From a virus (Duplodnaviria; Heunggongvirae; Uroviricota; Caudoviricetes), in IMG/VR virus record IMGVR_UViG_2706796742_000001, positions 1 to 64,000 of that record: a DNA stretch of 64,000 nucleotides; one strand, given 5' to 3'. The notes under the pieces are model-generated. The model was not told the origin of the DNA and did no database searches. It saw nothing but the letters and a program-made list of their open reading frames with translations. Both the position numbers and the translations under genes were made by a program. Below are positions 5,313 to 31,694 of the stretch, one piece after another (within the stretch, counting starts at the first letter, position 1; the number at the start of each line of letters is the position of its first letter).

Positions 5313-5329
5313 AATTTCAAGGAGTATTA

Positions 5330-6214
5330 ATGAAGCCGATGTTCAAATATCTTGGTGGTAAAACAAGAATATTAAAAGAGTATGAGCGTTTAGGTGTCTT
5401 TCCAGACAACTGTAAAAACTTCTATGACCTGTTTTCAGGTGGTGGTTCAGTAGCTATCTGGGCTTATAACAGATACCCAGAGGCAAAAGTGTTTATTAAT
5501 GAGATAAATAAACATATTATAGGTCTTTACACAACTTTCAGAAATGACTATGAAAACTTCATGGAAGAGTTTGAGTACTTATCAAAGAGGTACTTAGCCT
5601 TACCTATGCAGGAAGAGTATGCCGTGAAAGGCCAGCGTCATAACCGTCTACGCTATAAGATGTATTACAGTGTAAGAGAGGAACTTCTTTTGCTTGGTGA
5701 AGAAGGAGCATATGACTACAGGTACTATGCCAGACAGTTTTTCCTTCAAAAATTAAGTTTTGGTGGTGTATGGCAGACTACTAAAGAGATGAAAGGTCAC
5801 TATGCAACACCTTGTGGGTATTTGCTGGAAGAAGAGATTTTCTTCACAAAAACTAAAGAATCACTATCCGAGTTTTACAGTTTTATCACCGATGAAAGGG
5901 TAATACTTAGCAGTGAACCTTATGACAGGGTTGACATAAAACATGGAGAAGGCACAGTTATTTACTGTGACCCCCCATATATCAACACCAACCAGAAATA
6001 TGGTGCAAAGTTTGATATTGAGATGTCTGTAAAATTATGCAAAGATATGATTTCTTGGGGGGAGTTAGGCTCTAAAGTTTTGATGTCAAACTCTCAGTGG
6101 GATGGATGGGCAAACCTAATTCCTGAAAATTTTAACTTGACAGAGGTTAGCCATTCATACACAATACATGCACAGAGAAGCAAAGATATTAACGAAGTAA
6201 TTATTCACAACTAA
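5330..6214 (+). CDS. dam: DNA N6-adenine methyltransferase, Dam family
   Basis: Dam-like N-terminus FKYLGGK, SAM-binding DLFSGGGS, catalytic DPPY motif. Confidence 0.7.
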   Translation: MKPMFKYLGGKTRILKEYERLGVFPDNCKNFYDLFSGGGSVAIWAYNRYPEAKVFINEINKHIIGLYTTFRNDYENFMEEFEYLSKRYLALPMQEEYAVKGQRHNRLRYKMYYSVREELLLLGEEGAYDYRYYARQFFLQKLSFGGVWQTTKEMKGHYATPCGYLLEEEIFFTKTKESLSEFYSFITDERVILSSEPYDRVDIKHGEGTVIYCDPPYINTNQKYGAKFDIEMSVKLCKDMISWGELGSKVLMSNSQWDGWANLIPENFNLTEVSHSYTIHAQRSKDINEVIIHN

Positions 6215-6225
6215 GGTATCAAGTT

Positions 6226-7038
6226 ATGGCAAACAGCATCAATGTAGCACTGAATGGTAAGGTTGTTAAAATTCACACTAAGATTATCAGTGTCGAGGAT
6301 TTCCTTAATGAAAAACGTTACAAAGAAAACCCTCGTCAACGAAATACACTTAAGCGTCTGAAAAGCAAACACCTTAATGGTGACGTATCACCAGACCAAA
6401 CAGTAGTCCATGTGGCTAAGTTCGGTAGTTCACTGTTCATCATTGATGGTCACTCACGTCGAGAGGCATGGAAAGTTGGTAACCTGACACGACCAGAAAA
6501 CTTGATTGCAGTTATATACCATGTGAACTCCATATTGGATGTCACAGATTTGTACACTCATTTTGACTCTGAGTTAGCAAGAGAAAAACCTTCAGAAGTT
6601 TATTACGGAAATATGAAGATGATTTCTTTCAACCCAGAGTCAGAACTGATGAAAGCATCTTGGGCAACTGCTATTAAGTATGTTGCTGCATACTACGGTG
6701 TACAACAGGTATCTAACACTGAAACAGTTAAATACCTTAATGACTTTAAAAATGAGCTGGAACAAATTGATTCTCTTGAAGTACAGCTTAAAGGTGTAGT
6801 AAACGCAAAACGGAAATATTCTTCTGGGATTCGCGCAGCAATGTTAATTACTCTACGCCTATATGGTGATGCTGCATTTTCCTTTTGGGAAGACTATAAT
6901 GACTACTGTGAAGGTATGTCTAACAAATATGTTACAGAGTTATACCAACTGGCATTACAAGCTGGTCGCGGAGCACAGGCTGATAAGTTGTTGATGAATC
7001 AAGTGATTTCACTTGTCAACTATTACAGTCAAGAATAA
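6226..7038 (+). CDS. ParB-like nuclease-domain protein
   Basis: ParB/DUF262-type motif IIDGHSRREAW in the N-terminal half; 270-aa ORF; terminator hairpin downstream. Confidence 0.45.
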   Translation: MANSINVALNGKVVKIHTKIISVEDFLNEKRYKENPRQRNTLKRLKSKHLNGDVSPDQTVVHVAKFGSSLFIIDGHSRREAWKVGNLTRPENLIAVIYHVNSILDVTDLYTHFDSELAREKPSEVYYGNMKMISFNPESELMKASWATAIKYVAAYYGVQQVSNTETVKYLNDFKNELEQIDSLEVQLKGVVNAKRKYSSGIRAAMLITLRLYGDAAFSFWEDYNDYCEGMSNKYVTELYQLALQAGRGAQADKLLMNQVISLVNYYSQE

Positions 7039-7863: not shown

Positions 7864-8190
7864 ATGCAGATTAATGGAAGAGACTTTGTAGCAGTTTACT
7901 ACGAGAAAGATAAAGAAGTTGGCGTAGCACAAATATCTTATGGTAATGGTAAGTGGTTGTATGGGACAATCGCAGTAGTCGGGACAAGGAGTGATACAAA
8001 AACTTTTAAAGATTGTGTTGACCTTCTTGAAGAATCCATCCACAATCGTTGGTGTCTGATATGGATGACTGACAACGAAGTGATAGAACGCTTCAAAAAG
8101 ATTGGTATCAACATTGATAGCATTGAGCATGTTGATTTATATGAGCTAACTGAGAAGGTAAACTATGAAAGTAATACTAGCCAGAGATAA
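7864..8190 (+). CDS. hypothetical protein
   Basis: 108-aa ORF, tightly packed. Confidence 0.45.
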   Translation: MQINGRDFVAVYYEKDKEVGVAQISYGNGKWLYGTIAVVGTRSDTKTFKDCVDLLEESIHNRWCLIWMTDNEVIERFKKIGINIDSIEHVDLYELTEKVNYESNTSQR

Positions 8191-8392
8191 AAAGACACGG
8201 AAAATTATCCGGTCAGCAGTATCTATTGGAAGAAATGAAGTGATTCCTTTTACAGCAAATGATGTGATAATCTACAGGAAAAAATTAGCATTCAGTTATT
8301 GCTTACGTGGCTTTATCTCCCAGCCATTGGAAGACTTTAAAAGTCGTTGTGGTAAAGGTATCATCATTCAAGAGGCAATTATCAATGGCTGA
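8165..8392 (+). CDS. hypothetical protein
   Basis: 75-aa ORF with aaggt RBS, overlaps neighbours. Confidence 0.35.
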   Translation: MKVILARDKKTRKIIRSAVSIGRNEVIPFTANDVIIYRKKLAFSYCLRGFISQPLEDFKSRCGKGIIIQEAIING

Positions 8393-8585
8393 CCTCTGCA
8401 AAGACTGTTCTATCGAAATGTTCGGACGTGATACAGGTGACTTAAAAGGTCTCATCACTGAGGATGATTTTAAAGCTGGCTATGCAATGCCAGTAATCTG
8501 TGAAGGTTGTGGATGTATCTGGGTAGACCACGAAGGACAACGTGTAAAACCTTCAGAAGATAAAGAATCTTGGGAGAGATGCTAA
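8385..8585 (+). CDS. small Cys-rich (zinc-ribbon-like) protein
   Basis: Internal start MADLCKDCS; paired CxxC motifs (CKDC, CEGCGC). Confidence 0.4.
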   Translation: MADLCKDCSIEMFGRDTGDLKGLITEDDFKAGYAMPVICEGCGCIWVDHEGQRVKPSEDKESWERC

Positions 8586-9371
8586 ATGGGTATTGTAAAA
8601 ATTATCAATGGTGATATCTTTGCCGCATTTGATAAAAGTAAGTTTGATGTCATTGGTCATGGCTGTAACTGTATGAATTTCATGGGTGCAGGTATTGCAG
8701 CAACTATTTCTAAGCGTTATCCAAAAGTATATGATACTGATACAGAAGTTTACCTGTTTGCAGGTGGTATTCGCCACAAACCATGTGAAAACCTACTAGG
8801 TAATTTCTCTGTAACACGCTTAAAACAAGGCCGTGTAGCTAACCTTTACACCCAACTTCATACTGGTAAAGATGCCCGATACAGTGCTTTAGAGTCATCT
8901 TTGAAGCAACTTAACAGATACTGTGAAGTTAATAAGTTGAAGAAAGTTGGTTTACCTATGATTGGTGCAGGTATCGGTGGACTAGACCCTCAAGCCGTCA
9001 CAGTTATCATTAATCAGGTGATGAAGAGCGTAGATGTTTACCTGTATGTCTACGAGACAGAGATGTACAACGAGTTACACTCAGGTTGGAAGAACTATTG
9101 CGAACCGGAATACTTTGCAGGTGTAGTAACGTTCACAGACAATACAGTTACCCTCTTCAGACGAAGAAAAGGTAAGATACATCAAAGTAACCCTCCGGTT
9201 GAAAAGATGTCCCTAAGTAACGCTCTAGTTACCCACCTGTCGAAGAGCAATCACAGAATTGCCGTGACATTTGGTAGCGATGCAGACACCTACATCTATG
9301 CAAGAACTGATGAGGATATCGAGACAGTTTTCTCATCACCGGAAGTTACCTTCTTAGACGCAAAGAACTAA
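8586..9371 (+). CDS. macro-domain protein (ADP-ribose binding or hydrolase-like) with C-terminal extension
   Basis: N-terminal pattern GDIF...DVIGHGCNCMNFMGAGIA and later LPMIGAGIGG resemble macro-domain glycine motifs. Confidence 0.5.
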   Translation: MGIVKIINGDIFAAFDKSKFDVIGHGCNCMNFMGAGIAATISKRYPKVYDTDTEVYLFAGGIRHKPCENLLGNFSVTRLKQGRVANLYTQLHTGKDARYSALESSLKQLNRYCEVNKLKKVGLPMIGAGIGGLDPQAVTVIINQVMKSVDVYLYVYETEMYNELHSGWKNYCEPEYFAGVVTFTDNTVTLFRRRKGKIHQSNPPVEKMSLSNALVTHLSKSNHRIAVTFGSDADTYIYARTDEDIETVFSSPEVTFLDAKN

Positions 9372-9439
9372 GAAACCCTGTAGAATATTCACAATAGACT
9401 AAGCCTTTCTTATCTGGTAAATTTTTCAGGTAAGGAGGG

Positions 9440-9640
9440 CTTTTTCATTTCAGGATTGTGCAGGTAGATTTCTGTAGAGAAATCTGTAGAGAGAATTTTG
9501 AACTCCAAAGAGAAAATCCATTTTCAAACTGTGCAGGTAATCTCCAAAGAGCTTTTTCATTTTCAAAACGTGCAGATAAAAATCAGGTCGGGCAAGAAAA
9601 ATCATTTTAGAATTGTGCAGGTAGGTGGGTGCAGGTGGGG
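9440..9640 (+). repeat. iteron-like array: four direct repeats of about 23 nt ending in TGTGCAGGTA plus degenerate copies
   Basis: CTTTTTCATTTCAGGATTGTGCAGGTA, TCCATTTTCAAACTGTGCAGGTA, CTTTTTCATTTTCAAAACGTGCAGATA, ATCATTTTAGAATTGTGCAGGTA, then GGTGGGTGCAGGTGGGG. Confidence 0.6.
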
Positions 9641-9799
9641 ATGTCGCCATTTCTCACAAGACTACCACATCTGAAAAGAAAAGTCAACAGAAAAATTTGT
9701 AGCGGATTGAAAAATAATTCTTGATTGTAGTTCTGTTTTGTGGTAGTCGCGTGCGCCCGTTTCATTACATTTTTGCCAAAAATATTTTTAAAATTTTTC

Positions 9800-9828
9800 T
9801 TGACTCCTCGAACGGGGTTATCTAGTAT
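9800..9828 (+). promoter_or_regulatory. sigma70-like early promoter with A/T-rich upstream region
   Basis: TTGACT-N17-TAGTAT preceded by AAAAATATTTTTAAAATTTTTC. Confidence 0.5.
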
Positions 9829-9838
9829 TTGCATCAAC

Positions 9839-9859
9839 GGGGAGGGAATGACCTTCCCC
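9839..9859 (+). repeat. class-B early cassette hairpin, copy 1
   Basis: GGGGAGGGAATGACCTTCCCC followed by conserved ..TAAACTAGGAGATTCAAAAATG leader. Confidence 0.6.
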
Positions 9860-9893
9860 ACTAAGTAAAACCCTTAAACTAGGAGATTCAAAA

Positions 9894-10288: not shown

Positions 10289-10302
10289 AAAGTACTTTAC
10301 AA

Positions 10303-10331
10303 GGGGCTTAAAAGCTGATATCTTAAGCCCC
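10303..10331 (+). repeat. class-A early cassette hairpin, copy 1
   Basis: GGGGCTTAAAAGCTGATATCTTAAGCCCC preceded by AAGTACTTTACAA, followed by conserved leader with GGAG. Confidence 0.6.
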
Positions 10332-10378
10332 AGATAAAAAGCTTTATCACATTAACCTTAAACTAGGAGATTCAAAAA

Positions 10379-10759
10379 ATGGCTTATCGTGCACCGAAAT
10401 TCATCAACAAAGACAACTTCCGCAACGCACTGGAGAAGTCACTTGATGAAAAATTTAACGGCAAATTGATTGTTGTTCACGCATTCAATTTTAAGTATGA
10501 TATTAACGGGAATAAAATCAACCATTACACGGCAACCATGTTAGATGGTGCGCTTTCAAGTGAAAAAGCCATTATCAATGCGCTTGCTGGACGTGGTAAA
10601 AACCTGATAAAATGCAATAAGAGACGTTATCAGGGCGGCGCATATGGTTACGATGATGCTGTTTATCATCTTGAAAATATGGGCTATTCAGTGGAAAAAG
10701 CTGGAGTGTCTCAAATAATCGGCAGTGACGGCTATGTGACAATTTTCAAAATTAACTGA
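10379..10759 (+). CDS. hypothetical early protein
   Basis: Preceded by class-A cassette and GGAG RBS. Confidence 0.5.
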   Translation: MAYRAPKFINKDNFRNALEKSLDEKFNGKLIVVHAFNFKYDINGNKINHYTATMLDGALSSEKAIINALAGRGKNLIKCNKRRYQGGAYGYDDAVYHLENMGYSVEKAGVSQIIGSDGYVTIFKIN

Positions 10760-10774
10760 TAAAGTACTTTACAA

Positions 10775-10803
10775 GGGGCTTATAGTTCGATAAAGTAAGC
10801 CCC
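10775..10803 (+). repeat. class-A cassette hairpin, copy 2 (loop variant)
   Basis: GGGGCTTATAGTTCGATAAAGTAAGCCCC. Confidence 0.6.
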
Positions 10804-10847
10804 AGATAAAGAGCTTTACCACTAAATCCTAAATTGGAGATTCTAAG

Positions 10848-11138
10848 ATGGCTATTATCAAAAACGTTGTAATTACTGCAAAAACTCGTGATGATGCTCG
10901 TGTTATGGCTAAAAAGTTATGCGGGAAAGTGATTGACAACGGGAAACAATCTGCTGTAAGGTGGGGCGTGAAGGCTGATAAACAGTTGAAGTTAAAAAAT
11001 TCACCGATAAACCTTTTTACATGTGTAAACACTATTGGGAAGACAAATGTATACACGAAAAAGGCATACATTAGACGCGTAGCATTAACATCCCCCATTC
11101 GTACAATGAGAAGTTATGCAAAGCTAAAAATTAATTAA
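10848..11138 (+). CDS. hypothetical early protein (basic)
   Basis: Preceded by class-A cassette variant and GGAG RBS. Confidence 0.5.
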   Translation: MAIIKNVVITAKTRDDARVMAKKLCGKVIDNGKQSAVRWGVKADKQLKLKNSPINLFTCVNTIGKTNVYTKKAYIRRVALTSPIRTMRSYAKLKIN

Positions 11139-11152
11139 TAAAGTACTTTACA

Positions 11153-11182
11153 GGGGGCTTAAAAGCTGATATCTTAAGCCCC
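11153..11182 (+). repeat. class-A cassette hairpin, copy 3
   Basis: GGGGGCTTAAAAGCTGATATCTTAAGCCCC. Confidence 0.6.
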
Positions 11183-11228
11183 AGATAAAGAACTTTACCA
11201 CTAAATCCTTAAACTAGGAGATTCAAAA

Positions 11229-11525
11229 ATGAAATTATCAAATAAAGTTAGGGAAAATCTAAGCAAATTACTCAACAAAATTGATTTTATCGAGACCTCA
11301 AGAAATACTCATGAGGTGATGGAATGGATACACGGCAAAATAAAAGGCCGTCGTGTAGTAATTTGCTTATGGAATAGCTGCAGGGAGTATAAGAAACCTG
11401 TTTTGCAAATTAATGTTTATGATGATACTTTTAAAAGCCCAGTAAAGTCTAAAAGTGACTTATTAGAATCTTATGAGATAACTGTAAGTGGCAAGGTATC
11501 ACGTAAAGAGGGAACACCATGCTAA
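11229..11525 (+). CDS. hypothetical early protein
   Basis: Preceded by class-A cassette. Confidence 0.5.
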   Translation: MKLSNKVRENLSKLLNKIDFIETSRNTHEVMEWIHGKIKGRRVVICLWNSCREYKKPVLQINVYDDTFKSPVKSKSDLLESYEITVSGKVSRKEGTPC

Positions 11526-11939: not shown

Positions 11940-12212
11940 ATGTATACTACTAACAACGGTCGCACCTTAAACGTAACACTGCGCCACTATGTGAACGGTG
12001 TAATGCACTTCGAGGATTTACAAGCTGAACAACATATCTTGGATTGGCAACTTGCAGGATTCCAAAAAACTGCTACCGGATACGGGAAAAAGATTCCAAC
12101 TAGTTGGAAAGTATACTACAAAGGACGTTTGCGCAGAATTTATCAGGATGTTTACAGCAATAGCGCAACAAGTTACATCATGGTAAAAGGTAAAAAGCTG
12201 CATTTAGTGTAA
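11940..12212 (+). CDS. hypothetical early protein
   Basis: Preceded by class-B cassette. Confidence 0.5.
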   Translation: MYTTNNGRTLNVTLRHYVNGVMHFEDLQAEQHILDWQLAGFQKTATGYGKKIPTSWKVYYKGRLRRIYQDVYSNSATSYIMVKGKKLHLV

Positions 12213-12224
12213 AGTACTTTACAA

Positions 12225-12253
12225 GGGGCTTAAAAGCTGATATCTTAAGCCCC
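12225..12253 (+). repeat. class-A cassette hairpin, copy 4
   Basis: GGGGCTTAAAAGCTGATATCTTAAGCCCC. Confidence 0.6.
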
Positions 12254-12297
12254 AGATAAAGAGTTTTACCGCTAAATCCTAGACTGGAGATTCAAAA

Positions 12298-12702
12298 ATG
12301 GCTATCAATAAACGCGAATTATCAATTTTAAAAGCACGTTTGACCGTCAACCGGATTAATGTTATTACATCATCTGCACCAGATGAAACATTGCACAACA
12401 TTATTGGGAAGATTCAAAGTGTTATCTTGGACGTTGAAAACGTGAAAAACTCATTAACTGACGTTGCAGCAGGTATCACGCTAGACGGTGCACAATATGA
12501 AATGGCTGACATGTTAGGCAAATCTAAGGTAATGAATAAAGAGTTAGACTTGAAAATGTTTAGATTTGCTGTTAAAGTATGGTTATCCGTCGAATATGAC
12601 GCAAATTTTGCAATCGCTGACTTTTTCGCCACCTGGTTACAACGTAATTTAACAAATCACGATTTTCGTGATATCTGCGATGCAATTTATGCAGAACTAT
12701 AA
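12298..12702 (+). CDS. hypothetical early protein
   Basis: Preceded by class-A cassette. Confidence 0.5.
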   Translation: MAINKRELSILKARLTVNRINVITSSAPDETLHNIIGKIQSVILDVENVKNSLTDVAAGITLDGAQYEMADMLGKSKVMNKELDLKMFRFAVKVWLSVEYDANFAIADFFATWLQRNLTNHDFRDICDAIYAEL

Positions 12703-12897: not shown

Positions 12898-13097
12898 CTA
12901 TTATTAACGGTTTAAACATTGAAACTACTCACATCAAAGATATCAAAGTAGGGGATATAGTCCTTTTTCACGGCGTAGAAAAAACCGTCACGGCGAAAGA
13001 CATCAAAGAGGATTCTTTCATGGGTCGGTCTCTCTTCGGTGATTCGTATTGCTTAGGTTACCGTGCAGTTTTAAAAGTTGTAAAAAATAATAAATAA
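12894..13097 (+). CDS. hypothetical early protein
   Basis: Preceded by two tandem class-B cassettes. Confidence 0.45.
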   Translation: MAIINGLNIETTHIKDIKVGDIVLFHGVEKTVTAKDIKEDSFMGRSLFGDSYCLGYRAVLKVVKNNK

Positions 13098-13109
13098 AGT
13101 ACTTTACAA

Positions 13110-13138
13110 GGGGCTTATAGTTCGATAAAGTAAGCCCC
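13110..13138 (+). repeat. class-A cassette hairpin, copy 5
   Basis: GGGGCTTATAGTTCGATAAAGTAAGCCCC. Confidence 0.6.
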
Positions 13139-13182
13139 AGATAAAGAGCTTTACCACTAAATCCTAAACTGGAGATTCTAAA

Positions 13183-13725
13183 ATGAAATGCTTTCACGGT
13201 ACTACTCAAGAAAACTTCACCAACCTGATTAATAACGGTGATAAGCCATCAGGTGCATGGAATTGTTCGGATATGGATGGAAATTTTTACGTTTATCCAG
13301 AAAATAAAATCTATGGCGACGATGCGGAAGAGATAATCTCTGAAGGTATCCAACAAGCTCTGGGCAATGCCGCTATTACCGCAGCTTTTCAGATGAAAAC
13401 CCAAAACATTGTTATCTTGGAACTTGATATTCCAGAAGATGAGTTAAACGATGATTACTCATGTGATAATATGTCTGGCGTGGCAAGTTTTACAGAATAT
13501 TTTGATATAAGCTGGATTAAAAAAGTTTACACCACTGAATTTAATGCTATGTTTTCACCATTTTGTCTACCTTCACTGGATAACCCGAATTTAAACTATA
13601 TTGATGAGTCTCTGGAACTCCTCGCTAAAAGCGTTCAACAGTCCGACAGTATTCAGGTTTTTTGTGACATCATGGACACACTGACGGAAAACATCATAGA
13701 AAGAGATTTGAAGGGCTTTTTCTGA
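13183..13725 (+). CDS. hypothetical early protein (acidic)
   Basis: Preceded by class-A cassette variant. Confidence 0.5.
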   Translation: MKCFHGTTQENFTNLINNGDKPSGAWNCSDMDGNFYVYPENKIYGDDAEEIISEGIQQALGNAAITAAFQMKTQNIVILELDIPEDELNDDYSCDNMSGVASFTEYFDISWIKKVYTTEFNAMFSPFCLPSLDNPNLNYIDESLELLAKSVQQSDSIQVFCDIMDTLTENIIERDLKGFF

Positions 13726-26879: not shown

Positions 26880-26956
26880 CTCTGTTTAGCTCAGCTTGGT
26901 AGAGCGTTCCGTTTGGGGCGGTAAGGCCGGAGGTTCAAGTCCTCCAACAGAGACCA
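26880..26956 (+). tRNA. tRNA-Pro (anticodon TGG)
   Basis: Hand-folded cloverleaf: acceptor CTCTGTT/AACAGAG, T-arm GGAGG-TTCAAGT-CCTCC, anticodon loop TTTGGGG, CCA encoded. Confidence 0.6.
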
Positions 26957-26963
26957 AATTAAT

Positions 26964-27040
26964 GTTCCAGTAGACAAAATGGTATAGTCACCACTCTTTC
27001 AAAGTGGATATTTGAGGGTTCAAATCCCTTCTGGAACGCC
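26964..27040 (+). tRNA. tRNA-Glu (anticodon TTC)
   Basis: Acceptor GTTCCAG/CTGGAAC, anticodon stem CCACT/AGTGG, loop CTTTCAA, T-arm GAGGG-TTCAAAT-CCCTT. Confidence 0.65.
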
Positions 27041-27044
27041 AGTT

Positions 27045-27122
27045 TTGACAGAAGACCAATTACAGCAAACTTAATCTTATACATCTGAAGGTAAATCGGA
27101 CAAAGAAGAGATTTGGTCTGGT
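27045..27122 (+). other. conserved inter-tRNA element E1
   Basis: 5' box CAGAAGACCAATTACAGCAAACTTAA and 3' TTTGGTCTGG able to pair with the 5' AGACCAAA; no T-loop. Confidence 0.5.
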
Positions 27123-27131
27123 CATTAAGAA

Positions 27132-27208
27132 TTGCGGGTATAGAGAAAGGGCGTCTCACATGTCTCATTAGCATGGTATCGGCAGGTTCGACTCCTGCAC
27201 CCGCCTCC
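27132..27208 (+). tRNA. tRNA with CAT anticodon (Met, initiator or Ile-lysidine type); 1-72 mismatch
   Basis: T-arm GCAGG-TTCGACT-CCTGC, anticodon stem CATGT/GCATG, loop CTCATTA; U1-C72 unpaired. Confidence 0.45.
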
Positions 27209-27211
27209 AAT

Positions 27212-27277
27212 TTTGCAGAAGACCGTATGCAGCAATAAACTACTTTTTGCGGATAAAAGAAAAAAACACGGTCTGGC
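27212..27277 (+). other. conserved inter-tRNA element E2
   Basis: CAGAAGACCGTATGCAGCAATAAACT ... CGGTCTGG. Confidence 0.5.
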
Positions 27278-27286
27278 AATGTATTA

Positions 27287-27363
27287 AGGTTAGGAAGCAC
27301 ATAAGGTATGTGCGGTCGCCTGTTAAGCGAATGGCACAGGGTTCGAATCCCTGACTAACCGCC
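27287..27363 (+). tRNA. tRNA-Asn (anticodon GTT)
   Basis: D-stem GCAC/GTGC, anticodon loop CTGTTAA, T-arm CAGGG-TTCGAAT-CCCTG. Confidence 0.65.
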
Positions 27364-27432
27364 AAATTTAGGAGAGAAGCGATTGCTCACCGATTTGTAA
27401 GGTGCAAGTCCTTAGCCTGAATAGAAATTAAA

Positions 27433-27520
27433 TGTGTCGTTATCCCGTAGATGGTAGCGGTGGGGACTGTAAATCCCTTGTCATTGAGACTCGGTAGGTT
27501 CGACTCCTACACGGCACACC
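27433..27520 (+). tRNA. tRNA-Tyr (anticodon GTA), long variable arm
   Basis: 88 nt; acceptor GTGTCGT/ACGGCAC, anticodon loop CTGTAAA, T-arm GTAGG-TTCGACT-CCTAC. Confidence 0.6.
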
Positions 27521-27525
27521 AATAA

Positions 27526-27603
27526 AGGCTATGTAGTTTAATAGGGTTAAAATACTCCCCTGTCACGGGAGATGATGTGAGTTCAAGTCTCATCGTAGCC
27601 GCC
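27526..27603 (+). tRNA. tRNA-Asp (anticodon GTC)
   Basis: Anticodon stem CTCCC/GGGAG, loop CTGTCAC, T-arm GTGAG-TTCAAGT-CTCAT. Confidence 0.6.
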
Positions 27604-27635
27604 AATTTTGAGAGGGCTATTTAGCCCCTCCCTTA

Positions 27636-27668
27636 AAGGGTTCTTACGAGTATCCTTTAAAGGGGCAG
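27636..27668 (+). other. conserved hairpin element, copy 1
   Basis: TTAAAGGGTTCTTACGAGTATCCTTTAA (7-bp stem, 14-nt loop). Confidence 0.45.
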
Positions 27669-27741
27669 AAGACCAAATTCAGCAAGTTACTTAAAATTTC
27701 AAGCCAATTCAATTTTGAAAAAATTTAAAACTTGGTCTGGC
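27662..27741 (+). other. conserved inter-tRNA element E3
   Basis: CAGAAGACCAAATTCAGCAAGTTACTTAA ... TTGGTCTGG. Confidence 0.5.
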
Positions 27742-27750
27742 TCAACAAAT

Positions 27751-27835
27751 TTACAGAAGACCGTTTACAGCAAAACTTAAACAATCTATTTCTCGGTAAA
27801 GAAAAGGCGAAGGTTCGATTCCCTCCACTTCTACC
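27751..27835 (+). other. conserved element E4 with tRNA-like 3' half
   Basis: CAGAAGACCGTTTACAGCAAAACTTAA then GAAGG-TTCGATT-CCCTC T-arm-like hairpin and CCA; only 5 acceptor pairs and no convincing D or anticodon arm. Confidence 0.4.
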
Positions 27836-27839
27836 AATA

Positions 27840-27916
27840 TGGTTCAGTCGCAGATAAGGTAATGCAAGGGTTTCATAAGCCCTATGAATGTGGGTTCGAA
27901 TCCCATCTGAACCTCC
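27840..27916 (+). tRNA. tRNA-Met (anticodon CAT)
   Basis: Acceptor GGTTCAG/CTGAACC, anticodon loop TTCATAA with three G-C pairs in stem, T-arm GTGGG-TTCGAAT-CCCAT. Confidence 0.6.
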
Positions 27917-27918
27917 AA

Positions 27919-27993
27919 TTGTGGGTTAGCATAAATGGTAATGCAAACGGCTGATAACCGTTAGAAGAGGGTTCGATACCCTCACCTACAACC
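27919..27993 (+). tRNA. tRNA-Ile (anticodon GAT)
   Basis: Anticodon stem AACGG/CCGTT, loop CTGATAA, T-arm GAGGG-TTCGATA-CCCTC. Confidence 0.65.
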
Positions 27994-28008
27994 AATTTTA
28001 ATAAAGTT

Positions 28009-28037
28009 GTTGACATTGAGATGTGACCACTTTATAG
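28009..28037 (+). promoter_or_regulatory. strong internal sigma70-like promoter in tRNA cluster
   Basis: TTGACA-N17-TATAGT preceded by A/T-rich tract. Confidence 0.6.
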
Positions 28038-28330
28038 TAACTAAAATACTTCATAATATGTATAATTCAAACACCAATACATGAGCATTAGACGTAATGC
28101 AATGTGGGGAAATTTGTTGTACATATTCTGAATAGTTTTCGTTGCGTAGCGTCTATTTTGCAAATTTAAAATAAATGCAAACGACAATGTTTTTCTGGCA
28201 GTAGCTTGATAGGCTAAACACCAGTGAGGTCTTCCAATCCCTCATCAAAGAATTTGGCGTACTAGCCCACGGTATGATTAATAAGGTGGGCATCTTTAAG
28301 GGCTTTCTAAGAGAGTCTTTAAAGATTAAT

Positions 28331-28407
28331 GCACCCTTAGTTCAACTGGACAGAACAAATGACTTCTAATCATTAGGTTACAGGTTCGAATCCTGTAGGG
28401 TGTGCCA
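28331..28407 (+). tRNA. tRNA-Arg (anticodon TCT)
   Basis: D-stem GTTC/GAAC, anticodon stem AATGA/TCATT, loop CTTCTAA, T-arm ACAGG-TTCGAAT-CCTGT. Confidence 0.7.
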
Positions 28408-28549
28408 AATAGTTAGCAGATTGCTTAGACGACCTTATCGGGTCTCCGTGTAGGGAGGTGGTCTGTATCTCATGTTTTCCAGAACATGTAAATAATCTGA
28501 GAAGGGGCTTTACAGTGTTGTGAAAATACGGTAAGCTTCGAATTATAGT

Positions 28550-28632
28550 GTGGGACGATGTTAAGACTCTAAGGCATGAGCAACGGCCTCCAAAACCGTT
28601 TCAAAGTGGTTCAACTCCTCCGTCCCATGCCA
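28550..28632 (+). tRNA. atypical tRNA-like gene, possibly tRNA-Trp (anticodon CCA) with expanded D region
   Basis: 7-bp acceptor GTGGGAC/GTCCCAT plus CCA; candidate loop CTCCAAA; T-arm weak; D region about 7 nt too long. Confidence 0.3.
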
Positions 28633-28645
28633 AAGTCTTATTAGG

Positions 28646-28733
28646 GGTAGGTAGCGGCTAATGGTAGCCAAACAGTCTTGAAAACTGTTGCCACTGTAGA
28701 GATACGGTGAGGGTTCGACTCCTTTACTTACCG
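28646..28733 (+). tRNA. tRNA-Ser (anticodon TGA), long variable arm
   Basis: Anticodon stem ACAGT/ACTGT, loop CTTGAAA, long variable arm, discriminator G; CCA not fully encoded. Confidence 0.6.
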
Positions 28734-28987
28734 CCTAATAAGATTTAGACCGTCATGCTCGCTCGCATTTTCGGTTTATCCCTCGTGTGTTGTCGTACAC
28801 AAGTAAAGCACCTAGTAGGTGTCACGGAGAAGAGATAATATCAAGCTCTCCAAAGGTTCTAGTCACCGGATTAAACAAGACTATGCAAAGACCTATTTAG
28901 GTCTTTTTAGAGAACTTCTAAGGTTATTACAGCTTGTTGTGGAACCTTGTTGCTTAGGTTCTTAGAAGTTCTCTAAAAAGATTTAAT

Positions 28988-29064
28988 GCACCTATAGCCC
29001 AACTGGTAGAGGCAGCAGACTTAGAATCTGCTCAGTGTGAGTTCGAATCTCTCTAGGTGTACCA
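28988..29064 (+). tRNA. tRNA with anticodon TAG (Leu by code) but short variable loop
   Basis: Leu-like D-arm GCC-CAACTGGTAGA-GGC, anticodon stem GCAGA/TCTGC, loop CTTAGAA, 5-nt variable loop, discriminator A. Confidence 0.45.
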
Positions 29065-29071
29065 AATTAAT

Positions 29072-29147
29072 GCAGGTGTAGCAAAATGGTTATGCGGCTG
29101 ACTCTTAATCAGTAAGACGATGGGTTCAATTCCCTCCACCTGTACCA
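29072..29147 (+). tRNA. tRNA-Lys (anticodon CTT)
   Basis: Anticodon stem GCTGA/TCAGT, loop CTCTTAA; T-arm has two mismatches. Confidence 0.5.
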
Positions 29148-29153
29148 GACATT

Positions 29154-29229
29154 GGGGATGTAGTTTACATGGTTAAAACATAAGTTTTGCAAACTTAAGT
29201 ACAGGGTTCAATTCCCTGCTTCTCCACCA
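29154..29229 (+). tRNA. tRNA-Ala (anticodon TGC)
   Basis: G3-U70 wobble pair in acceptor (Ala identity), D-stem GTTT/AAAC, loop TTTGCAA, T-arm CAGGG-TTCAATT-CCCTG. Confidence 0.7.
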
Positions 29230-29235
29230 ATTAGT

Positions 29236-29310
29236 GCATCCATAGTTTAAACGGGAAAATTACAGTCTTCCAAACTGAGGTTGAGGGTTCGATTCCCTCT
29301 GGATGCTCCA
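29236..29310 (+). tRNA. tRNA-Gly (anticodon TCC)
   Basis: Acceptor GCATCCA/TGGATGC, loop CTTCCAA, T-arm GAGGG-TTCGATT-CCCTC. Confidence 0.6.
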
Positions 29311-29317
29311 AATTAAT

Positions 29318-29394
29318 GCTGCTTTCGTATAATTGGCTATTACACATCCATTGTAAGGATGGAAATGCAGGTTCGAGTCCTGTGAGCAGCACCA
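29318..29394 (+). tRNA. tRNA-Thr (anticodon TGT)
   Basis: Anticodon stem CATCC/GGATG, loop ATTGTAA, T-arm GCAGG-TTCGAGT-CCTGT. Confidence 0.65.
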
Positions 29395-29489
29395 ATTCAG
29401 AGGTCAAGTGAAAGACCGCTGGTGTCAACTGAAGACCGTAACAAATTCCACGGAGTTGAGTTAGCGGCACAACTTCAGACCTCTTTCAC
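29395..29489 (+). other. divergent copy E5 of the inter-tRNA element
   Basis: CTGAAGACCGTAACAAATTCCA; flanking inverted repeat CAGAGGTC ... GACCTCT. Confidence 0.35.
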
Positions 29490-29564
29490 ACTCGCTTAGT
29501 TTATATGGTAAAACATCACCCTTACAAGATGAAGAAAAAGGTTCAAGTCCTTTAGTGAGTACCA
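29490..29564 (+). tRNA. tRNA-Val (anticodon TAC)
   Basis: D-stem GTTT/AAAC, loop CTTACAA, T-arm AAAGG-TTCAAGT-CCTTT; one C-A mismatch in anticodon stem. Confidence 0.55.
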
Positions 29565-29565
29565 T

Positions 29566-29643
29566 GTTCCAGTATCCCAATTGGCAGAGGATGCAAGCTC
29601 AAACCTTGTATTAGTGACGGTTCGAATCCGTCTTGGAACACCA
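29566..29643 (+). tRNA. tRNA with anticodon CAA (Leu by code) but short variable loop
   Basis: Leu-like D-arm TCC-CAATTGGCAGA-GGA, anticodon stem GCAAG/CTTGT, loop CTCAAAC, 6-nt variable loop, T-arm GACGG-TTCGAAT-CCGTC. Confidence 0.45.
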
Positions 29644-29659
29644 ATTTTAGGAGAACACT

Positions 29660-29767
29660 ATGAGTGATAAATCAATTGCAAAAAAGTTTATAGCGTCATT
29701 CAAAAATAGGCGTAAAAACAAAGATTGTGAAAATCTGTATGGTGTTCTTGTAGGTAAGCAGGATTAG
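29660..29767 (+). CDS. possible small basic protein (35 aa) inside the tRNA cluster
   Basis: AGGAG RBS 6 nt before ATG; ORF MSDKSIAKKFIASFKNRRKNKDCENLYGVLVGKQD; 3' end overlaps start of a tRNA. Confidence 0.25.
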   Translation: MSDKSIAKKFIASFKNRRKNKDCENLYGVLVGKQD

Positions 29768-29833
29768 TTCAAATGGATAGAGCAGCAGTCTACGAAGCTG
29801 TTAATAGGGGTTCGAATCCCTTATCCTGCGCCA
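29758..29833 (+). tRNA. tRNA-Arg (anticodon ACG)
   Basis: Acceptor GCAGGAT/ATCCTGC, loop CTACGAA, T-arm AGGGG-TTCGAAT-CCCTT. Confidence 0.65.
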
Positions 29834-29852
29834 ATTTAAAGAGGCTATTTAG

Positions 29853-30410
29853 ATGAGATATTTGAAGTATGCTTCATGGATTTTCCTAGCTTTGCTAGAA
29901 CCATTTGCAGCAATCCTAGCAGTCATCTTAGCACCTTTTGTAGTTCCATTCTACAGTGAGAAGAAAGGGCACTTACCTTTCGGCTTCAGATGGATGGAGA
30001 CATATGACAACCCAATTGATGGTGATAAAGGTCATGTTGAACGATGGGCTAAGATTAGAAAGGTTGGTAAGCTTGGTGTCTATATGCAGAGAGTCGGTTG
30101 GCTCTGGAGAAACAAAGCTTATAACTTCTCTTACCATGTGTTAGGAAGAGATGTAAAAGATGTTACTAAGTGGAAAGGTAATATCAATGTAAGTTCTGAC
30201 CCTGAAGATAATCAGACAGGTTATCTCCTAATGTGGAACAGCAATGCTTGGGGATTATTTGCTTTTGTACCATCAATTAAAGTCTTTGGTAAACAGTTTT
30301 ACTGGAGAATTTATATTGGATGGAAACTTAAAAGTGTTGTCCCAGAAGAAAGAGCATTCTCAAGGGAAAGAGTTATGTTGGCATTCTTTATTCATCCACT
30401 AAGAAAATAA
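29853..30410 (+). CDS. membrane protein embedded in tRNA cluster
   Basis: N-terminal hydrophobic stretch WIFLALLEPFAAILAVILAPFVVPF; RBS agagg; flanked by tRNAs. Confidence 0.5.
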   Translation: MRYLKYASWIFLALLEPFAAILAVILAPFVVPFYSEKKGHLPFGFRWMETYDNPIDGDKGHVERWAKIRKVGKLGVYMQRVGWLWRNKAYNFSYHVLGRDVKDVTKWKGNINVSSDPEDNQTGYLLMWNSNAWGLFAFVPSIKVFGKQFYWRIYIGWKLKSVVPEERAFSRERVMLAFFIHPLRK

Positions 30411-30418
30411 AGATTTAA

Positions 30419-30494
30419 AGGGGATTAGTTTACAAGGTTAAAACCTCGGTCTTTGAAATCGAAGAAGTTGGTTCAATTCCAACATCCCCCGCCA
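30419..30494 (+). tRNA. tRNA-Gln (anticodon TTG)
   Basis: D-stem GTTT/AAAC, loop CTTTGAA, T-arm GTTGG-TTCAATT-CCAAC; unpaired 1-72 position. Confidence 0.6.
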
Positions 30495-30496
30495 AT

Positions 30497-30575
30497 GCTC
30501 CATTACTCCAATTGGCAGAGAGGCCAGACTTAAAATCTGTGTTATGTATCGGTTCGAATCCGATATGGAGTACCA
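30497..30575 (+). tRNA. tRNA with anticodon TAA (Leu by code) but short variable loop
   Basis: Leu-like D-arm CTC-CAATTGGCAGA-GAG, loop CTTAAAA, 7-nt variable loop, T-arm ATCGG-TTCGAAT-CCGAT, discriminator A. Confidence 0.45.
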
Positions 30576-30580
30576 AATTT

Positions 30581-30656
30581 AGCGGTATAGCATAACTGGC
30601 AATGCAGCAGTCTCTGAAGCTGTCTTATTAAGGTTCAAATCCTTATGCCGCTGCCA
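30581..30656 (+). tRNA. tRNA-Gln (anticodon CTG)
   Basis: Anticodon stem GCAGT/GCTGT, loop CTCTGAA, T-arm TAAGG-TTCAAAT-CCTTA, weak A1-U72 pair. Confidence 0.6.
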
Positions 30657-30657
30657 C

Positions 30658-30690
30658 TTCTAAGGGTTCTTACGAGAGTCCTTAAATGTG
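30658..30690 (+). other. conserved hairpin element, copy 2
   Basis: CTAAGGGTTCTTACGAGAGTCCTTAAA, same loop core GGGTTCTTACGAG as copy 1. Confidence 0.45.
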
Positions 30691-30763
30691 GCCTTATCAT
30701 AAATGGTAATGACCCATGCTGTGAACATGGTCTATACGGGTTCAAATCCCGTAGGTCACCCCA
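30688..30763 (+). tRNA. tRNA-His (anticodon GTG)
   Basis: Anticodon stem CCATG/CATGG, loop CTGTGAA, T-arm ACGGG-TTCAAAT-CCCGT, discriminator C. Confidence 0.65.
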
Positions 30764-30768
30764 ATTTA

Positions 30769-30843
30769 TAGTCCAAGTAGCTTATATGGTTAAAGCGCGT
30801 GTCTGAAAAACATGAGAAGAGGGTTCAAATCCCACTGGACTAC
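30769..30843 (+). tRNA. tRNA-Phe (anticodon GAA)
   Basis: Acceptor TAGTCCA/TGGACTA, D-stem GCTT/AAGC, anticodon stem CGTGT/ACATG, loop CTGAAAA; two extra nt before D-stem. Confidence 0.5.
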
Positions 30844-30861
30844 CAATTTCAAAGGTGCTTA

Positions 30862-31596
30862 ATGAAAGAGATGACAGAACAAGGTAAGGAGATTTTTAAT
30901 CTCTTAAAAACCGGTAGAGGGTTTTCTAATCCCCTTATTACTGGTGCAGCAGTTCTCGGTGGAACCGTAGCTGCCTCTACATCACTTGTAAGCTCTATTA
31001 GCTCTGTAACAGACCCTACAATAAAGGATAAGCTTATTGCTGCTGGACTTACAACAGTTCTACTTAGCAGCTTTACAACGAGTCTGACAAGCACTACATC
31101 AACCACTAAAACACTGACAGATTACGGTCAAAAGTCCATTGATGAGTTTTCATCACGTATGCAGGTAGCAAAAGGATATTCTAATGCTATGGGTGCAGCA
31201 GGAGAGCAAGTCGGTTGTACACCTTTTAGTGGTATTATGGGTGTTGCTACAGAATATGGTCAAAAAGCTATTGACACAATTAACAGTGCACTAGATAGTG
31301 TTAACGGTGTGTTAAGTGACTTACAGGATGCTATTGACGAAGGTCTTGATACTATTTCTGATTTAGCTAACCAAGCTGTTAGCAAGATTAATGAAGGTAT
31401 CTCGAAGATTACAGCTTATGCAGACGAAGTTGTGCAGATGATTGAAGAAGAAGCTGCCCTTATTGCAGAGTACCTTAAAACGAATATCAATGGGTTCTTA
31501 GCAGGTATCTTACCAGACTGGTTTGATGATGCTTGTAAAACTGGTGTAATTGACACTATTGCAACACCAGAAATGAAGAACGCATTACAGAAATAA
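30862..31596 (+). CDS. hypothetical Ser/Thr-rich protein
   Basis: Start moved from track ATG 30799 (which overlaps a tRNA) to in-frame ATG at 30862 with aaagg RBS. Confidence 0.45.
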   Translation: MKEMTEQGKEIFNLLKTGRGFSNPLITGAAVLGGTVAASTSLVSSISSVTDPTIKDKLIAAGLTTVLLSSFTTSLTSTTSTTKTLTDYGQKSIDEFSSRMQVAKGYSNAMGAAGEQVGCTPFSGIMGVATEYGQKAIDTINSALDSVNGVLSDLQDAIDEGLDTISDLANQAVSKINEGISKITAYADEVVQMIEEEAALIAEYLKTNINGFLAGILPDWFDDACKTGVIDTIATPEMKNALQK

Positions 31597-31597
31597 T

Positions 31598-31690: not shown

Positions 31691-31694
31691 ATTT

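What the first reader, a model, noticed from the sequence alone, without database searches (positions are those of the whole stretch)
8586..9371. Phage-encoded macro-domain protein: candidate ADP-ribosylation reversal or anti-defence factor
The N-terminal half carries glycine-rich motifs arranged like macro domains (GDIF...DVIGHGCNCMNFMGAGIA and LPMIGAGIGG), followed by a roughly 110-aa extension of unknown function. Macro domains bind or remove ADP-ribose, so a phage copy in the early region could counteract host ADP-ribosylation-based defence (for example DarT-like) or reverse phage-directed modifications.
Basis: partly seen in the sequence, partly recalled or inferred. Interest (0 to 1): 0.6.

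Follow-up and report, generated by a model that had tools for sequence, protein, structure and literature searches.

The report
Felix O1-type phage macrodomain (AdfM-like)
This is a real, conserved phage gene for an ADP-ribose-removing macrodomain enzyme of the family that phages T4 and PhiKZ use to undo DNA ADP-ribosylation by the bacterial DarT2 toxin, here fused to a fast-evolving extra domain of unknown role found only in Felix O1-like phages.

Summary
Window 8586-9371 (+) is a 261-aa ORF in a Felixounavirus genome (99.2% nt identity to Salmonella phage BPS15Q2 gene 114, annotated 'phosphatase'). Residues 1-157 are a bona fide macro domain: Pfam scores above its cut-off, and a confident AF2 model matches DarG, TARG1 and Poa1p best.

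The domain is 35% identical to T4 Tk.4 and shares phrog_335 with T4 Tk.4 and PhiKZ gp104. Both were recently named AdfM and shown to neutralise the DarTG2 defence system. The active site is the 'Gln type' (H25, N28, Q90, G129) of Streptomyces SCO6735, which cleaves DarT-made thymidine-ADP-ribose on DNA. It lacks the Lys of DarG and the Lys/Asp dyad of TARG1.

The unexplained part is the C-terminal domain (158-261). It is found only in this protein family of Felix O1-like phages, has no sequence or fold relative, is under purifying selection, and diverges about twice as fast as the macro domain. The whole gene is swapped as a cassette between near-identical phage backbones.

Verdict: new member of a known kind, with a variant architecture. 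Moderate interest.

The parts
8586..9371 (+). Complete CDS, 261 aa, two-domain macrodomain protein. Ortholog of Felix O1 NP_944801, BPS15Q2_114 and AYO145A gp014; annotated 'phosphatase' or 'macro domain protein'.
   Evidence: ORF. 99.2% nt identity to BPS15Q2. phrog_335, E=1.7e-112. dN/dS 0.10 against AYO145A.
8572..8578 (+). Shine-Dalgarno-like GGGAGAG, 7 nt upstream of the ATG. The upstream 66-aa ORF (8385-8585) ends with TAA at 8583-8585, directly abutting the ATG, which suggests translational coupling.
   Evidence: Read directly from the sequence. The upstream ORF belongs to phrog_2210.
8586..9056 (+). N-terminal macro domain, residues 1-157, of the ALC1-like/TARG1-DarG-Poa1p-SCO6735 class. 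Homolog of T4 Tk.4 (AdfM).
   Evidence: Pfam Macro. DarG profiles. Foldseek top hits 5m3e, 4j5r, 6lfr, 5m3i. Family profile against PDB: SCO6735 5e3b best, E=1.8e-16. 35% identity to T4 Tk.4. pI 9.1.
8658..8699 (+). Loop 1, H25-G-C-N28-C...M-G34-A-G36-I-A38. H25 corresponds to SCO6735 H24 and Poa1p H23. N28 corresponds to SCO6735 N27 and PhiKZ AdfM N23. This is the first Gly-rich ADP-ribose-binding loop.
   Evidence: H25, G26, N28, C29, G36 and A38 are invariant in 25 homologs. Alignments to SCO6735, Poa1p and PhiKZ gp104. Mutagenesis of the equivalent residues is reported in PMC9411070 and PMC13309987.
8841..8855 (+). N86-L-Y-T-Q90 motif. Q90 sits at the position of the catalytic Lys of TARG1 (K84) and DarG (K80), and of Gln85 in SCO6735.
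   Evidence: N86, Y88, T89 and Q90 are invariant. Alignments. T4 Tk.4 has the same NLYTQ. Q85A and Q85E abolish SCO6735 activity.
8955..8981 (+). Loop 2, P124-M-I-G127-A-G129-I-G131-G132: the diphosphate-binding loop. G129 corresponds to SCO6735 G128. G131 sits where TARG1 has the catalytic Asp125.
   Evidence: P124, G127 and G129 are invariant. Alignments.
9057..9368 (+). C-terminal domain, residues 158-261: a linker helix followed by a six-strand beta-rich module. It is an orphan restricted to this protein family of Felix O1-like phages.
9401..9452 (+). Intrinsic-terminator-like hairpin (17 pairs) plus a T-rich tail, closing the transcription unit.
   Evidence: Terminator scan. A terminator is annotated at the equivalent site in AYO145A.

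Best explanation
The gene encodes an orphan-antitoxin-type ADP-ribosyl glycohydrolase, an AdfM-like anti-DarT factor.

Proposed mechanism:
1. It is made from the rIIA-side block of small genes, probably early in infection.
2. Its N-terminal macro domain binds ADP-ribose attached to thymidine in single-stranded phage DNA by host DarT2 toxins and hydrolyses the N-glycosidic link. This restores replicable DNA.
3. Catalysis is predicted to follow the SCO6735-type mechanism, not the Lys-dependent route of DarG/TARG1. In that mechanism Q90, locked in place by N28, positions the distal ribose and a backbone-held water acts.
4. The C-terminal domain is an accessory module specific to Felix O1-like phages. 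Most likely it mediates binding to a variable partner, such as the toxin itself, a replication protein or ssDNA, rather than a second enzymatic activity.

Shown here: the fold, the family, conservation of the active-site residues, the architecture, and the evolutionary pattern. Inferred: substrate, defence target, expression timing, and the role of the C domain.
For: - Macro fold and ADPr-binding loops are confirmed.
- The closest characterised relative is T4 Tk.4, at 35% identity over the whole domain, E=5e-24, with identical HGCNC, NLYTQ and IGAGIG motifs.
- T4 tk.4 was the single significant hit that became conditionally essential on DarTG2, and a clean knockout is DarTG2-sensitive.
- The protein shares phrog_335 with T4 Tk.4 and with PhiKZ gp104/AdfM. 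PhiKZ AdfM de-ADP-ribosylates DarT2-modified DNA, and mutating the Asn equivalent to N28 reduces that activity.
- It scores higher on the NCBIfam DarG profile (53 bits) than T4 Tk.4 does (30 bits).
- The best PDB match to the family profile is SCO6735. That Gln-type enzyme rescues cells from DarT, cleaves T-ADPr DNA faster than DarG, and needs Q85 and N27. Both are invariant here as Q90 and N28.
- The evolutionary signature fits a conflict gene. A second allele class (P0009 type; BPS17L1, Si3, finno and others) occupies the same locus. Flanks are 96% nt identical, but the gene is only 52-57% identical.
- The C domain diverges about twice as fast as the N domain, yet is under purifying selection within an allele class.
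Against: - No experiment exists on any Felix O1-like ortholog.
- The T4 evidence is genetic and comes from one preprint.
- Macrodomain substrate range cannot be read from sequence. The same HxCNC loop is shared with yeast Poa1p, an ADP-ribose-1''-phosphate phosphatase.
- The DNA-binding lysines K34 and K89 and the long 'mobile loop' of SCO6735 are absent here.
- One Tk.4-like relative (P0018) is fused to a cREC domain, a domain linked to processing of cyclic-phosphate ADPr derivatives.
- The phage lineage also carries Prs and NAMPT NAD-salvage genes. That would also fit a role in small-molecule ADPr metabolism.
- The C domain has no detectable similarity to DarG's DarT-binding C-terminal domain.
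Confidence: 0.6

Rival explanations
1. The protein processes small-molecule ADP-ribose derivatives. The macro domain would act on soluble ADPr compounds, such as ADPr-1''-phosphate, O-acetyl-ADPr, or ADPr-based immune signals and toxic metabolites. It would either destroy host immune messengers or recycle ADPr alongside the phage NAD+ salvage enzymes. This is the origin of the database name 'phosphatase'.
For: - Poa1p (ADPr-1''-phosphatase) is among the top structural and profile matches and shares the H-x-C-N-C...G-x-G-I-A...RYPK stretch.
- T4 Tk.4 is annotated 'contains A1pp phosphatase motif'.
- The relative P0018 is a macro-cREC fusion.
- Felixounaviruses encode Prs and NAMPT.
- A polynucleotide kinase gene lies about 2.7 kb upstream on the same strand.
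Against: - The only in-family genetic phenotype (T4 Tk.4) concerns a DNA ADP-ribosyltransferase system.
- The residue aligned with Poa1p S30, which was mutated in the deposited structure 6lft, is F32 here.
- No Tpt1/KptA or 2H phosphoesterase partner is annotated in the genome.
- The basic N domain (pI 9.1) suits a nucleic-acid substrate.
- The two activities are not mutually exclusive. TARG1 and SCO6735 are both multi-substrate enzymes.
Confidence: 0.17
2. The protein reverses RNA or protein ADP-ribosylation. It would remove ADP-ribose placed on mRNA/tRNA or on proteins, either by other host ART-based defences (for example CmdTAC-type mRNA ARTs) or by a phage-encoded ART as a self-regulating eraser.
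For: - SCO6735 and TARG1 also act on Glu/Asp-linked protein ADPr.
- Papers listed deal with reversible RNA ADP-ribosylation, but I read only their titles and abstract openings.
Against: - No ART is annotated in a closely related complete genome.
- CmdTAC defends against T-even phages (abstract listed), although T4 carries tk.4. Tk.4 therefore appears insufficient against it; this is inference.
- There is no direct evidence for any member of this family.
Confidence: 0.13
3. The macro domain is a non-catalytic ADP-ribose reader. It would only bind ADPr or ADP-ribosylated targets, because the canonical Lys/Asp catalytic residues are missing. The C domain would carry the effector function.
For: TARG1 K84 and D125 are replaced by Q90 and G131. 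One GenBank record calls the other allele a 'high-affinity ADP-ribose binding module'.
Against: - The same Gln-type site is fully active in SCO6735.
- It is present in T4 Tk.4, which has a loss-of-function phenotype on DarTG2.
- H25, N28, Q90 and G129 are invariant across 25 homologs.
Confidence: 0.05

Closest known systems
T4 Tk.4 = AdfM (anti-DarT factor Macrodomain), HIDEN-SEQ preprint 10.1101/2025.11.20.689424
   Same: Homologous over the entire macro domain: 35% identity, E=5e-24. Same phrog_335. Identical HGCNC, NLYTQ and IGAGIG active-site motifs. Stand-alone phage gene with no adjacent toxin. Same 'phosphatase' database label.
   Different: Tk.4 is a single 155-aa domain, whereas this protein carries an extra 104-aa C-terminal domain. 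It comes from a different phage lineage (Ounavirinae rather than Tevenvirinae) and a different neighbourhood (after rIIA/rIIB/PNK/spanins rather than between tk and vs). The anti-DarTG2 phenotype is untested here.
PhiKZ gp104 = AdfM (chimallivirus DarG2-like antitoxin), PMC13309987
   Same: Same PHROG. Conserved catalytic-loop Asn, with N28 aligned to N23. The proposed function, removal of DarT2 ADP-ribose from DNA, is demonstrated biochemically for gp104.
   Different: Only 22% identity. gp104 keeps the DarG-type Lys (FPTK) where this protein has Q90. gp104 is imported into a phage nucleus, and Felix O1-like phages are not nucleus-forming. gp104 has no C-terminal extension.
Streptomyces coelicolor SCO6735 (PDB 5E3B), PMC9411070
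   Same: Best PDB match to the family profile, E=1.8e-16. Same Gln-type active site: H24/N27/Q85/G128 correspond to H25/N28/Q90/G129. Cleaves thymidine-linked ADPr on ssDNA and neutralises DarT.
   Different: It is a bacterial housekeeping or DNA-protection enzyme. It has a mobile loop 5 residues longer, with K89/K94, and also K34; all are absent here. V25 is G26 here, although the proposed role of V25 is through its backbone. It has no C-terminal domain.
DarG antitoxin of DarTG2 (Thermus aquaticus 5M3E, M. tuberculosis 5M3I; NCBIfam NF048014)
   Same: Top structural neighbour, E=8e-10. Profile match over the macro domain, E=2e-14. Same predicted reaction.
   Different: 53 bits against an equivalog cut-off of 250. 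The catalytic Lys80 is replaced by Gln. DarG's C-terminal DarT-binding domain is not matched. There is no linked darT gene.
Human TARG1/OARD1 and yeast Poa1p (Poa1p-like macro clade)
   Same: Same fold subclass. The H-x-C-N-C and G-x-G-I-A loop is shared with Poa1p.
   Different: The TARG1 K84/D125 dyad is absent, replaced by Q90 and G131. The residue aligned with Poa1p S30 is F32. These are eukaryotic cellular enzymes.

Membership tests
Macro domain superfamily (Pfam PF01661) | Profile match above the curated gathering score | tested here: met
   31.6 bits against a cut-off of 22, E=1.7e-7, residues 25-141 covering profile positions 2-117 of 118.
Macro domain superfamily (Pfam PF01661) | Three-layer alpha/beta/alpha macro fold | tested here: met
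   AF2 pLDDT 90.1. Foldseek probability 1.0 to DarG, TARG1, Poa1p and viral macrodomains, with TM-score 0.75-0.85 on the target length.
Macro domain superfamily (Pfam PF01661) | Conserved Gly-rich ADP-ribose/diphosphate-binding loops | tested here: met
   G36, A38, P124, G127 and G129 are invariant; G9, I126, A128 and I130 are conserved in at least 90% of 25 homologs.
Phage AdfM / Tk.4 family (phrog_335) | Sequence homology to the experimentally characterised members | tested here: met
   phrog_335 E=1.7e-112. T4 Tk.4 (1.4e-64) and PhiKZ gp104 (8.2e-43) hit the same PHROG. BLASTP to Tk.4 gives 35% identity, E=5e-24.
Phage AdfM / Tk.4 family (phrog_335) | Stand-alone ('orphan antitoxin') gene without an adjacent ADP-ribosyltransferase | tested here: met
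   Neighbours are small phage ORFs of unknown-function PHROGs, spanins, PNK and rIIA/B.
Phage AdfM / Tk.4 family (phrog_335) | Single-domain protein of about 155-165 aa | tested here: not met
   261 aa with an additional 104-aa C-terminal domain. This is a variant architecture.
Phage AdfM / Tk.4 family (phrog_335) | Removes DarT2-made ADP-ribose from DNA and protects the phage from DarTG2 | not testable with these tools
   Needs biochemistry and plaque assays. The activity is known only for T4 Tk.4 (genetic) and PhiKZ gp104 (biochemical and genetic).
SCO6735-type (Gln-type) ALC1-like macrodomain hydrolases | Gln at the position of the TARG1/DarG catalytic Lys, held by the loop-1 Asn, plus the conserved His and loop-2 Gly | tested here: met
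   The profile alignment maps H25/N28/Q90/G129 onto SCO6735 H24/N27/Q85/G128. All four are invariant in the family. Their functional importance is reported in PMC9411070.
SCO6735-type (Gln-type) ALC1-like macrodomain hydrolases | Extended 'mobile loop' after the Gln with Lys89/Lys94, and Lys34 in loop 1 | tested here: not met
   SCO6735 has 5 extra residues relative to the phage profile after the Gln. K34 aligns with A35.
DarG antitoxin (NCBIfam NF048014 equivalog) | Full-length match above the equivalog cut-off, including the C-terminal DarT-binding domain | tested here: not met
DarG antitoxin (NCBIfam NF048014 equivalog) | Catalytic Lys (K80 in T. aquaticus DarG) | tested here: not met
   The position is Q90.
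DarG antitoxin (NCBIfam NF048014 equivalog) | Operon partner darT | tested here: not met
   No DarT-like gene in the flanks.
TARG1/OARD1 | Lys84/Asp125 catalytic dyad | tested here: not met
   K84 aligns with Q90 and D125 aligns with G131 in the phmmer alignment.
Poa1p-type ADP-ribose-1''-phosphate phosphatase | Residues mutated in the deposited Poa1p structures (H23, S30) | tested here: inconclusive
   H23 aligns with H25 (conserved). S30 aligns with F32 (not conserved). Phosphatase activity is not testable here.

The most novel reading that the evidence does not exclude
The orphan C-terminal domain, found only in Felix O1-like phages, makes this protein a two-mode anti-DarT factor analogous to full-length DarG but built from an unrelated fold. 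The macro domain would erase ADP-ribose from DNA, while the fast-evolving, mildly acidic C domain would directly bind and block the toxin or another host defence protein. Cassette-like allele replacement between otherwise near-identical phages would then reflect matching to different host toxin variants.
Probability: 0.15. Interest if true: 0.65.

Novelty: new member of a known kind. Interest (0 to 1): 0.4.

Why it matters
Felix O1-like phages are widely used for Salmonella and E. coli typing, biocontrol and therapy, so knowing which host defences they can disarm helps predict host range. This gene extends the recently defined AdfM class of orphan macrodomain antitoxins against DarTG2 to the subfamily Ounavirinae, and it corrects a misleading 'phosphatase' annotation carried by many of the roughly 200 matching GenBank records. 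It also offers a natural experiment. The Gln-type catalytic core comes with an added, rapidly diverging domain, and two deeply divergent alleles sit in isogenic backbones. Both could show how such enzymes are targeted or how their specificity is tuned. The basic idea, a phage macrodomain that reverses DarT, is already published for T4 and PhiKZ, so the conceptual gain is incremental.

Tried and rejected
1. Relatives of the C-terminal domain. I ran:
   - a profile HMM search of 1.84 billion representative proteins, which gave only fragments or orthologs of this family plus two eukaryotic repeat proteins, a retrotransposon polyprotein and a WSC-repeat protein, dismissed as summed-repeat artefacts;
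   - Pfam, NCBIfam and PHROG scans;
   - a PDB profile search (best E=0.047, ribosomal protein L25, not credible);
   - Foldseek against BFVD (only the SUSP2 ortholog).
   No relative was found. The afdb50 fold library was unavailable.
2. Homology between the Felixounavirus C domain and the C-terminal region of the Kolesnikvirus ortholog (phage ST-3). hhalign gave probability 0.1, so none is detectable. That region is either a different domain or diverged beyond recognition.
3. Classification as DarG, TARG1 or a strict SCO6735-family member. Rejected on defining residues and architecture (see the membership table).
4. The ORF as a fusion artefact of two genes. Rejected: the same length is seen in more than 240 genomes, AF2 packs the two domains with pTM 0.88, and both halves are under purifying selection.
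5. Literature on Felixounavirus and DarTG or macro domains. Nothing relevant was found.
6. L005 and L006 could not be read from the Python sandbox. I used DNA alignment instead.

Full report
**What is there.** Window 8586-9371 (+) is a single 261-aa ORF with an ATG start. A GGGAGAG Shine-Dalgarno-like sequence lies at 8572-8578. The start codon directly abuts the TAA of the upstream 66-aa ORF. A 17-pair terminator-like hairpin with a T-rich tail follows at 9401-9452. The window is a Felixounavirus genome. The gene is 99.2% nt identical to Salmonella phage BPS15Q2 gene 114 and 80-95% identical to about 200 other Felix O1-like phages. It is mostly annotated 'phosphatase', 'hypothetical protein' or 'macro domain protein'. 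It closes a same-strand block: rIIA, rIIB, a polynucleotide kinase, spanins, several small ORFs of unknown function, then the macro gene and the terminator.

**The macro domain is real.**
- Pfam PF01661 scores 31.6 bits against a gathering score of 22.
- The NCBIfam and PADLOC DarG profiles match residues 6-160 at E about 1e-14.
- phmmer against PDB gives TARG1/OARD1 first, then DarG and coronavirus Mac1.
- An AF2 model built on 25 homologs is confident (pLDDT 90.1, pTM 0.88).
- Foldseek puts the T. aquaticus DarG macrodomain (5m3e), TARG1 (4j5r), Poa1p (6lfr) and M. tuberculosis DarG (5m3i) on top, with probability 1.0.
- In the family alignment, H25, G26, N28, C29, G36, A38, N86, Y88, T89, Q90, P124, G127 and G129 are invariant. 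The refutation criterion 'loss of the Gly-rich loops' is therefore not met.

**Which macrodomain.**
- tblastn shows that residues 1-160 match the tk.4 gene of T-even phages, which lies between tk and vs, in hundreds of genomes.
- Direct comparison with T4 Tk.4 (NP_049723) gives 35% identity over the whole domain, E=5e-24, with identical HGCNC, NLYTQ and IGAGIG motifs.
- T4 Tk.4, PhiKZ gp104 and this protein all fall in phrog_335.
- Both reference proteins were recently characterised and both were named AdfM.
  - T4 tk.4 was the single significant gene that became conditionally essential on a DarTG2 host, and a clean knockout is DarTG2-sensitive (10.1101/2025.11.20.689424).
  - PhiKZ gp104 removes DarT2-made ADP-ribose from DNA in vitro, rescues DarT2 toxicity and is needed for resistance to DarTG2. 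Its N23A mutant is impaired (PMC13309987).
- N28 here aligns with that Asn.

**Active-site type.**
- The catalytic Lys of TARG1 (K84) and DarG (K80) is replaced by Q90. TARG1 D125 is replaced by G131.
- This does not imply an inactive reader. The best PDB hit of the family profile is SCO6735 (5e3b, E=1.8e-16), whose H24/N27/Q85/G128 align with H25/N28/Q90/G129.
- SCO6735 cleaves DarT-made thymidine-ADPr on ssDNA faster than DarG, rescues cells from DarT, and is inactivated by Q85A/E and N27S. A water-mediated mechanism positioned by backbone and Gln was proposed for it (PMC9411070).
- T4 Tk.4 has the same Gln.
- Differences from SCO6735: its longer mobile loop with K89/K94, and its K34, are absent here.
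- The loop-1 sequence is also very close to yeast Poa1p, an ADPr-1''-phosphatase. This explains the legacy 'phosphatase' label and keeps a small-molecule substrate possible.

**The C-terminal domain (158-261).**
- AF2 predicts a linker helix followed by a six-strand beta-rich module. The secondary structure agrees between the full-length model and the isolated model.
- Nothing outside this protein family is detectable. See the searches listed under 'tried and rejected'.
- In the phage collection the domain occurs in 241 records (Escherichia, Salmonella, Shigella and Citrobacter phages), and every match spans its full length.
- The Kolesnikvirus ortholog (phage ST-3, 255 aa, annotated 'Tk.4') also has a C-terminal extension of about 95 aa, but with no detectable similarity.
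- The domain is mildly acidic (pI 5.7, against 9.1 for the macro domain).
- It diverges about twice as fast as the macro domain: 44-52% against 73-78% identity in the 61-66%-identical homologs (P0002-P0008), and 24% against 49% for the second Felixounavirus allele.
- Within the main allele class it is under purifying selection (dN/dS 0.12). It is therefore a functional domain and not a drifting tail.
- Its role is unknown. A partner-binding or targeting function is my inference from this pattern.

**Evolutionary signature.**
- A second allele class (P0009; carried by BPS17L1, Si3, FSL SP-107, finno, ECML-1, phiWec172 and others) sits at exactly the same locus with the same upstream gene order.
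- In the DNA alignment the upstream genes are 96% identical, but the macro gene is only 57% (N half) and 52% (C half) identical. The breakpoint is a few codons into the ORF, and identity rises again past the terminator, to 75% over 9446-9800.
- The 75-aa ORF two genes upstream is also replaced.
- Cassette-like exchange of a deeply divergent allele in an otherwise isogenic backbone is typical of genes engaged with variable host factors. This is inference, but it fits an anti-defence role.

**Rivals.**
- Small-molecule ADPr processing is supported by the Poa1p similarity, a macro-cREC fusion among relatives (P0018), the argument in PMC9503650, and the Prs and NAMPT NAD-salvage genes of this lineage.
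- RNA or protein de-ADP-ribosylation is possible because related enzymes are multi-substrate, but no phage ART is annotated.
- A non-catalytic reader is unlikely given SCO6735 and Tk.4.
- I rate the anti-DarT2 DNA glycohydrolase reading at about 0.6. The broader claim 'active ADP-ribosyl hydrolase used in phage-host conflict' I rate at about 0.85.

**Novelty and verdict.** However, phage macrodomains that reverse DarT2 are already described (T4 and PhiKZ AdfM), and the gene is already annotated as a macro or 'phosphatase' protein in GenBank. It is a new member of a known kind, with a variant two-domain architecture and a notable allele mosaic. Interest 0.4.

Noticed in passing
window 9436-9623, within the ORF-free gap 9443-9893: Four direct copies of a roughly 31-nt unit ending in CATTTTNRRANYGTGCAGRTA, spaced 73, 39 and 45 nt apart, lie just downstream of the macro-gene terminator. 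The motif occurs 4 times in the window against 0.03 expected and nowhere else. Three of the four copies are conserved in a phage carrying the other macro allele. They look like iterons or regulator-binding sites. No Rfam family matches there.
   Followed up: partly
window 5324-7028: A 1.7-kb insertion relative to BPS15Q2 carries two genes. One is a 294-aa DNA methyltransferase at 5330-6214 (phrog_56, E=2e-52, with a DPPY motif). The other is a 270-aa protein at 6226-7038 (phrog_2615, unknown function) with a 'DGHSRR' stretch that, from memory and untested, resembles ParB/DndB-type motifs. This may be an accessory anti-restriction or epigenetic module.
   Followed up: partly
window 8165-9445 compared with L005 (P0009 allele; phages BPS17L1, Si3, finno and others): The macro gene with its terminator, and separately the 75-aa ORF at 8165-8392, are replaced by deeply divergent sequence (45-57% nt identity). 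The intervening 66-aa gene and the flanks stay about 96% identical. This indicates cassette-like allele exchange at two adjacent small loci.
   Followed up: yes
window about 10289-10384, 10748-10853, 11127-11242, 12210-12305, 13072-13189: Repeated intergenic units of about 100 nt (80-93% identical to one another) separate the small genes downstream of the macro gene. They are probably reiterated promoter/terminator modules of the early region.
   Followed up: no
window 26880-31770: A cluster of 25 tRNA genes, all on the + strand, covers nearly all amino acids.
   Followed up: no
L004 (AYO145A) 39013-41723; the equivalent genes lie just upstream of rIIA in circular order: Felixounaviruses encode ribose-phosphate pyrophosphokinase and nicotinamide phosphoribosyltransferase, which are NAD+ salvage genes, a few kb upstream of the macro-gene block. 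Together with the macrodomain, this suggests a broader NAD/ADP-ribose counter-defence toolkit.
   Followed up: no
P0018 (339-aa metagenomic relative): A Tk.4-like macro domain is fused to a cREC_REC domain (PF20274, cyclic-phosphate-processing receiver; E=4.7e-7). Some members of this family may therefore act on cyclic-phosphate ADPr derivatives.
   Followed up: no
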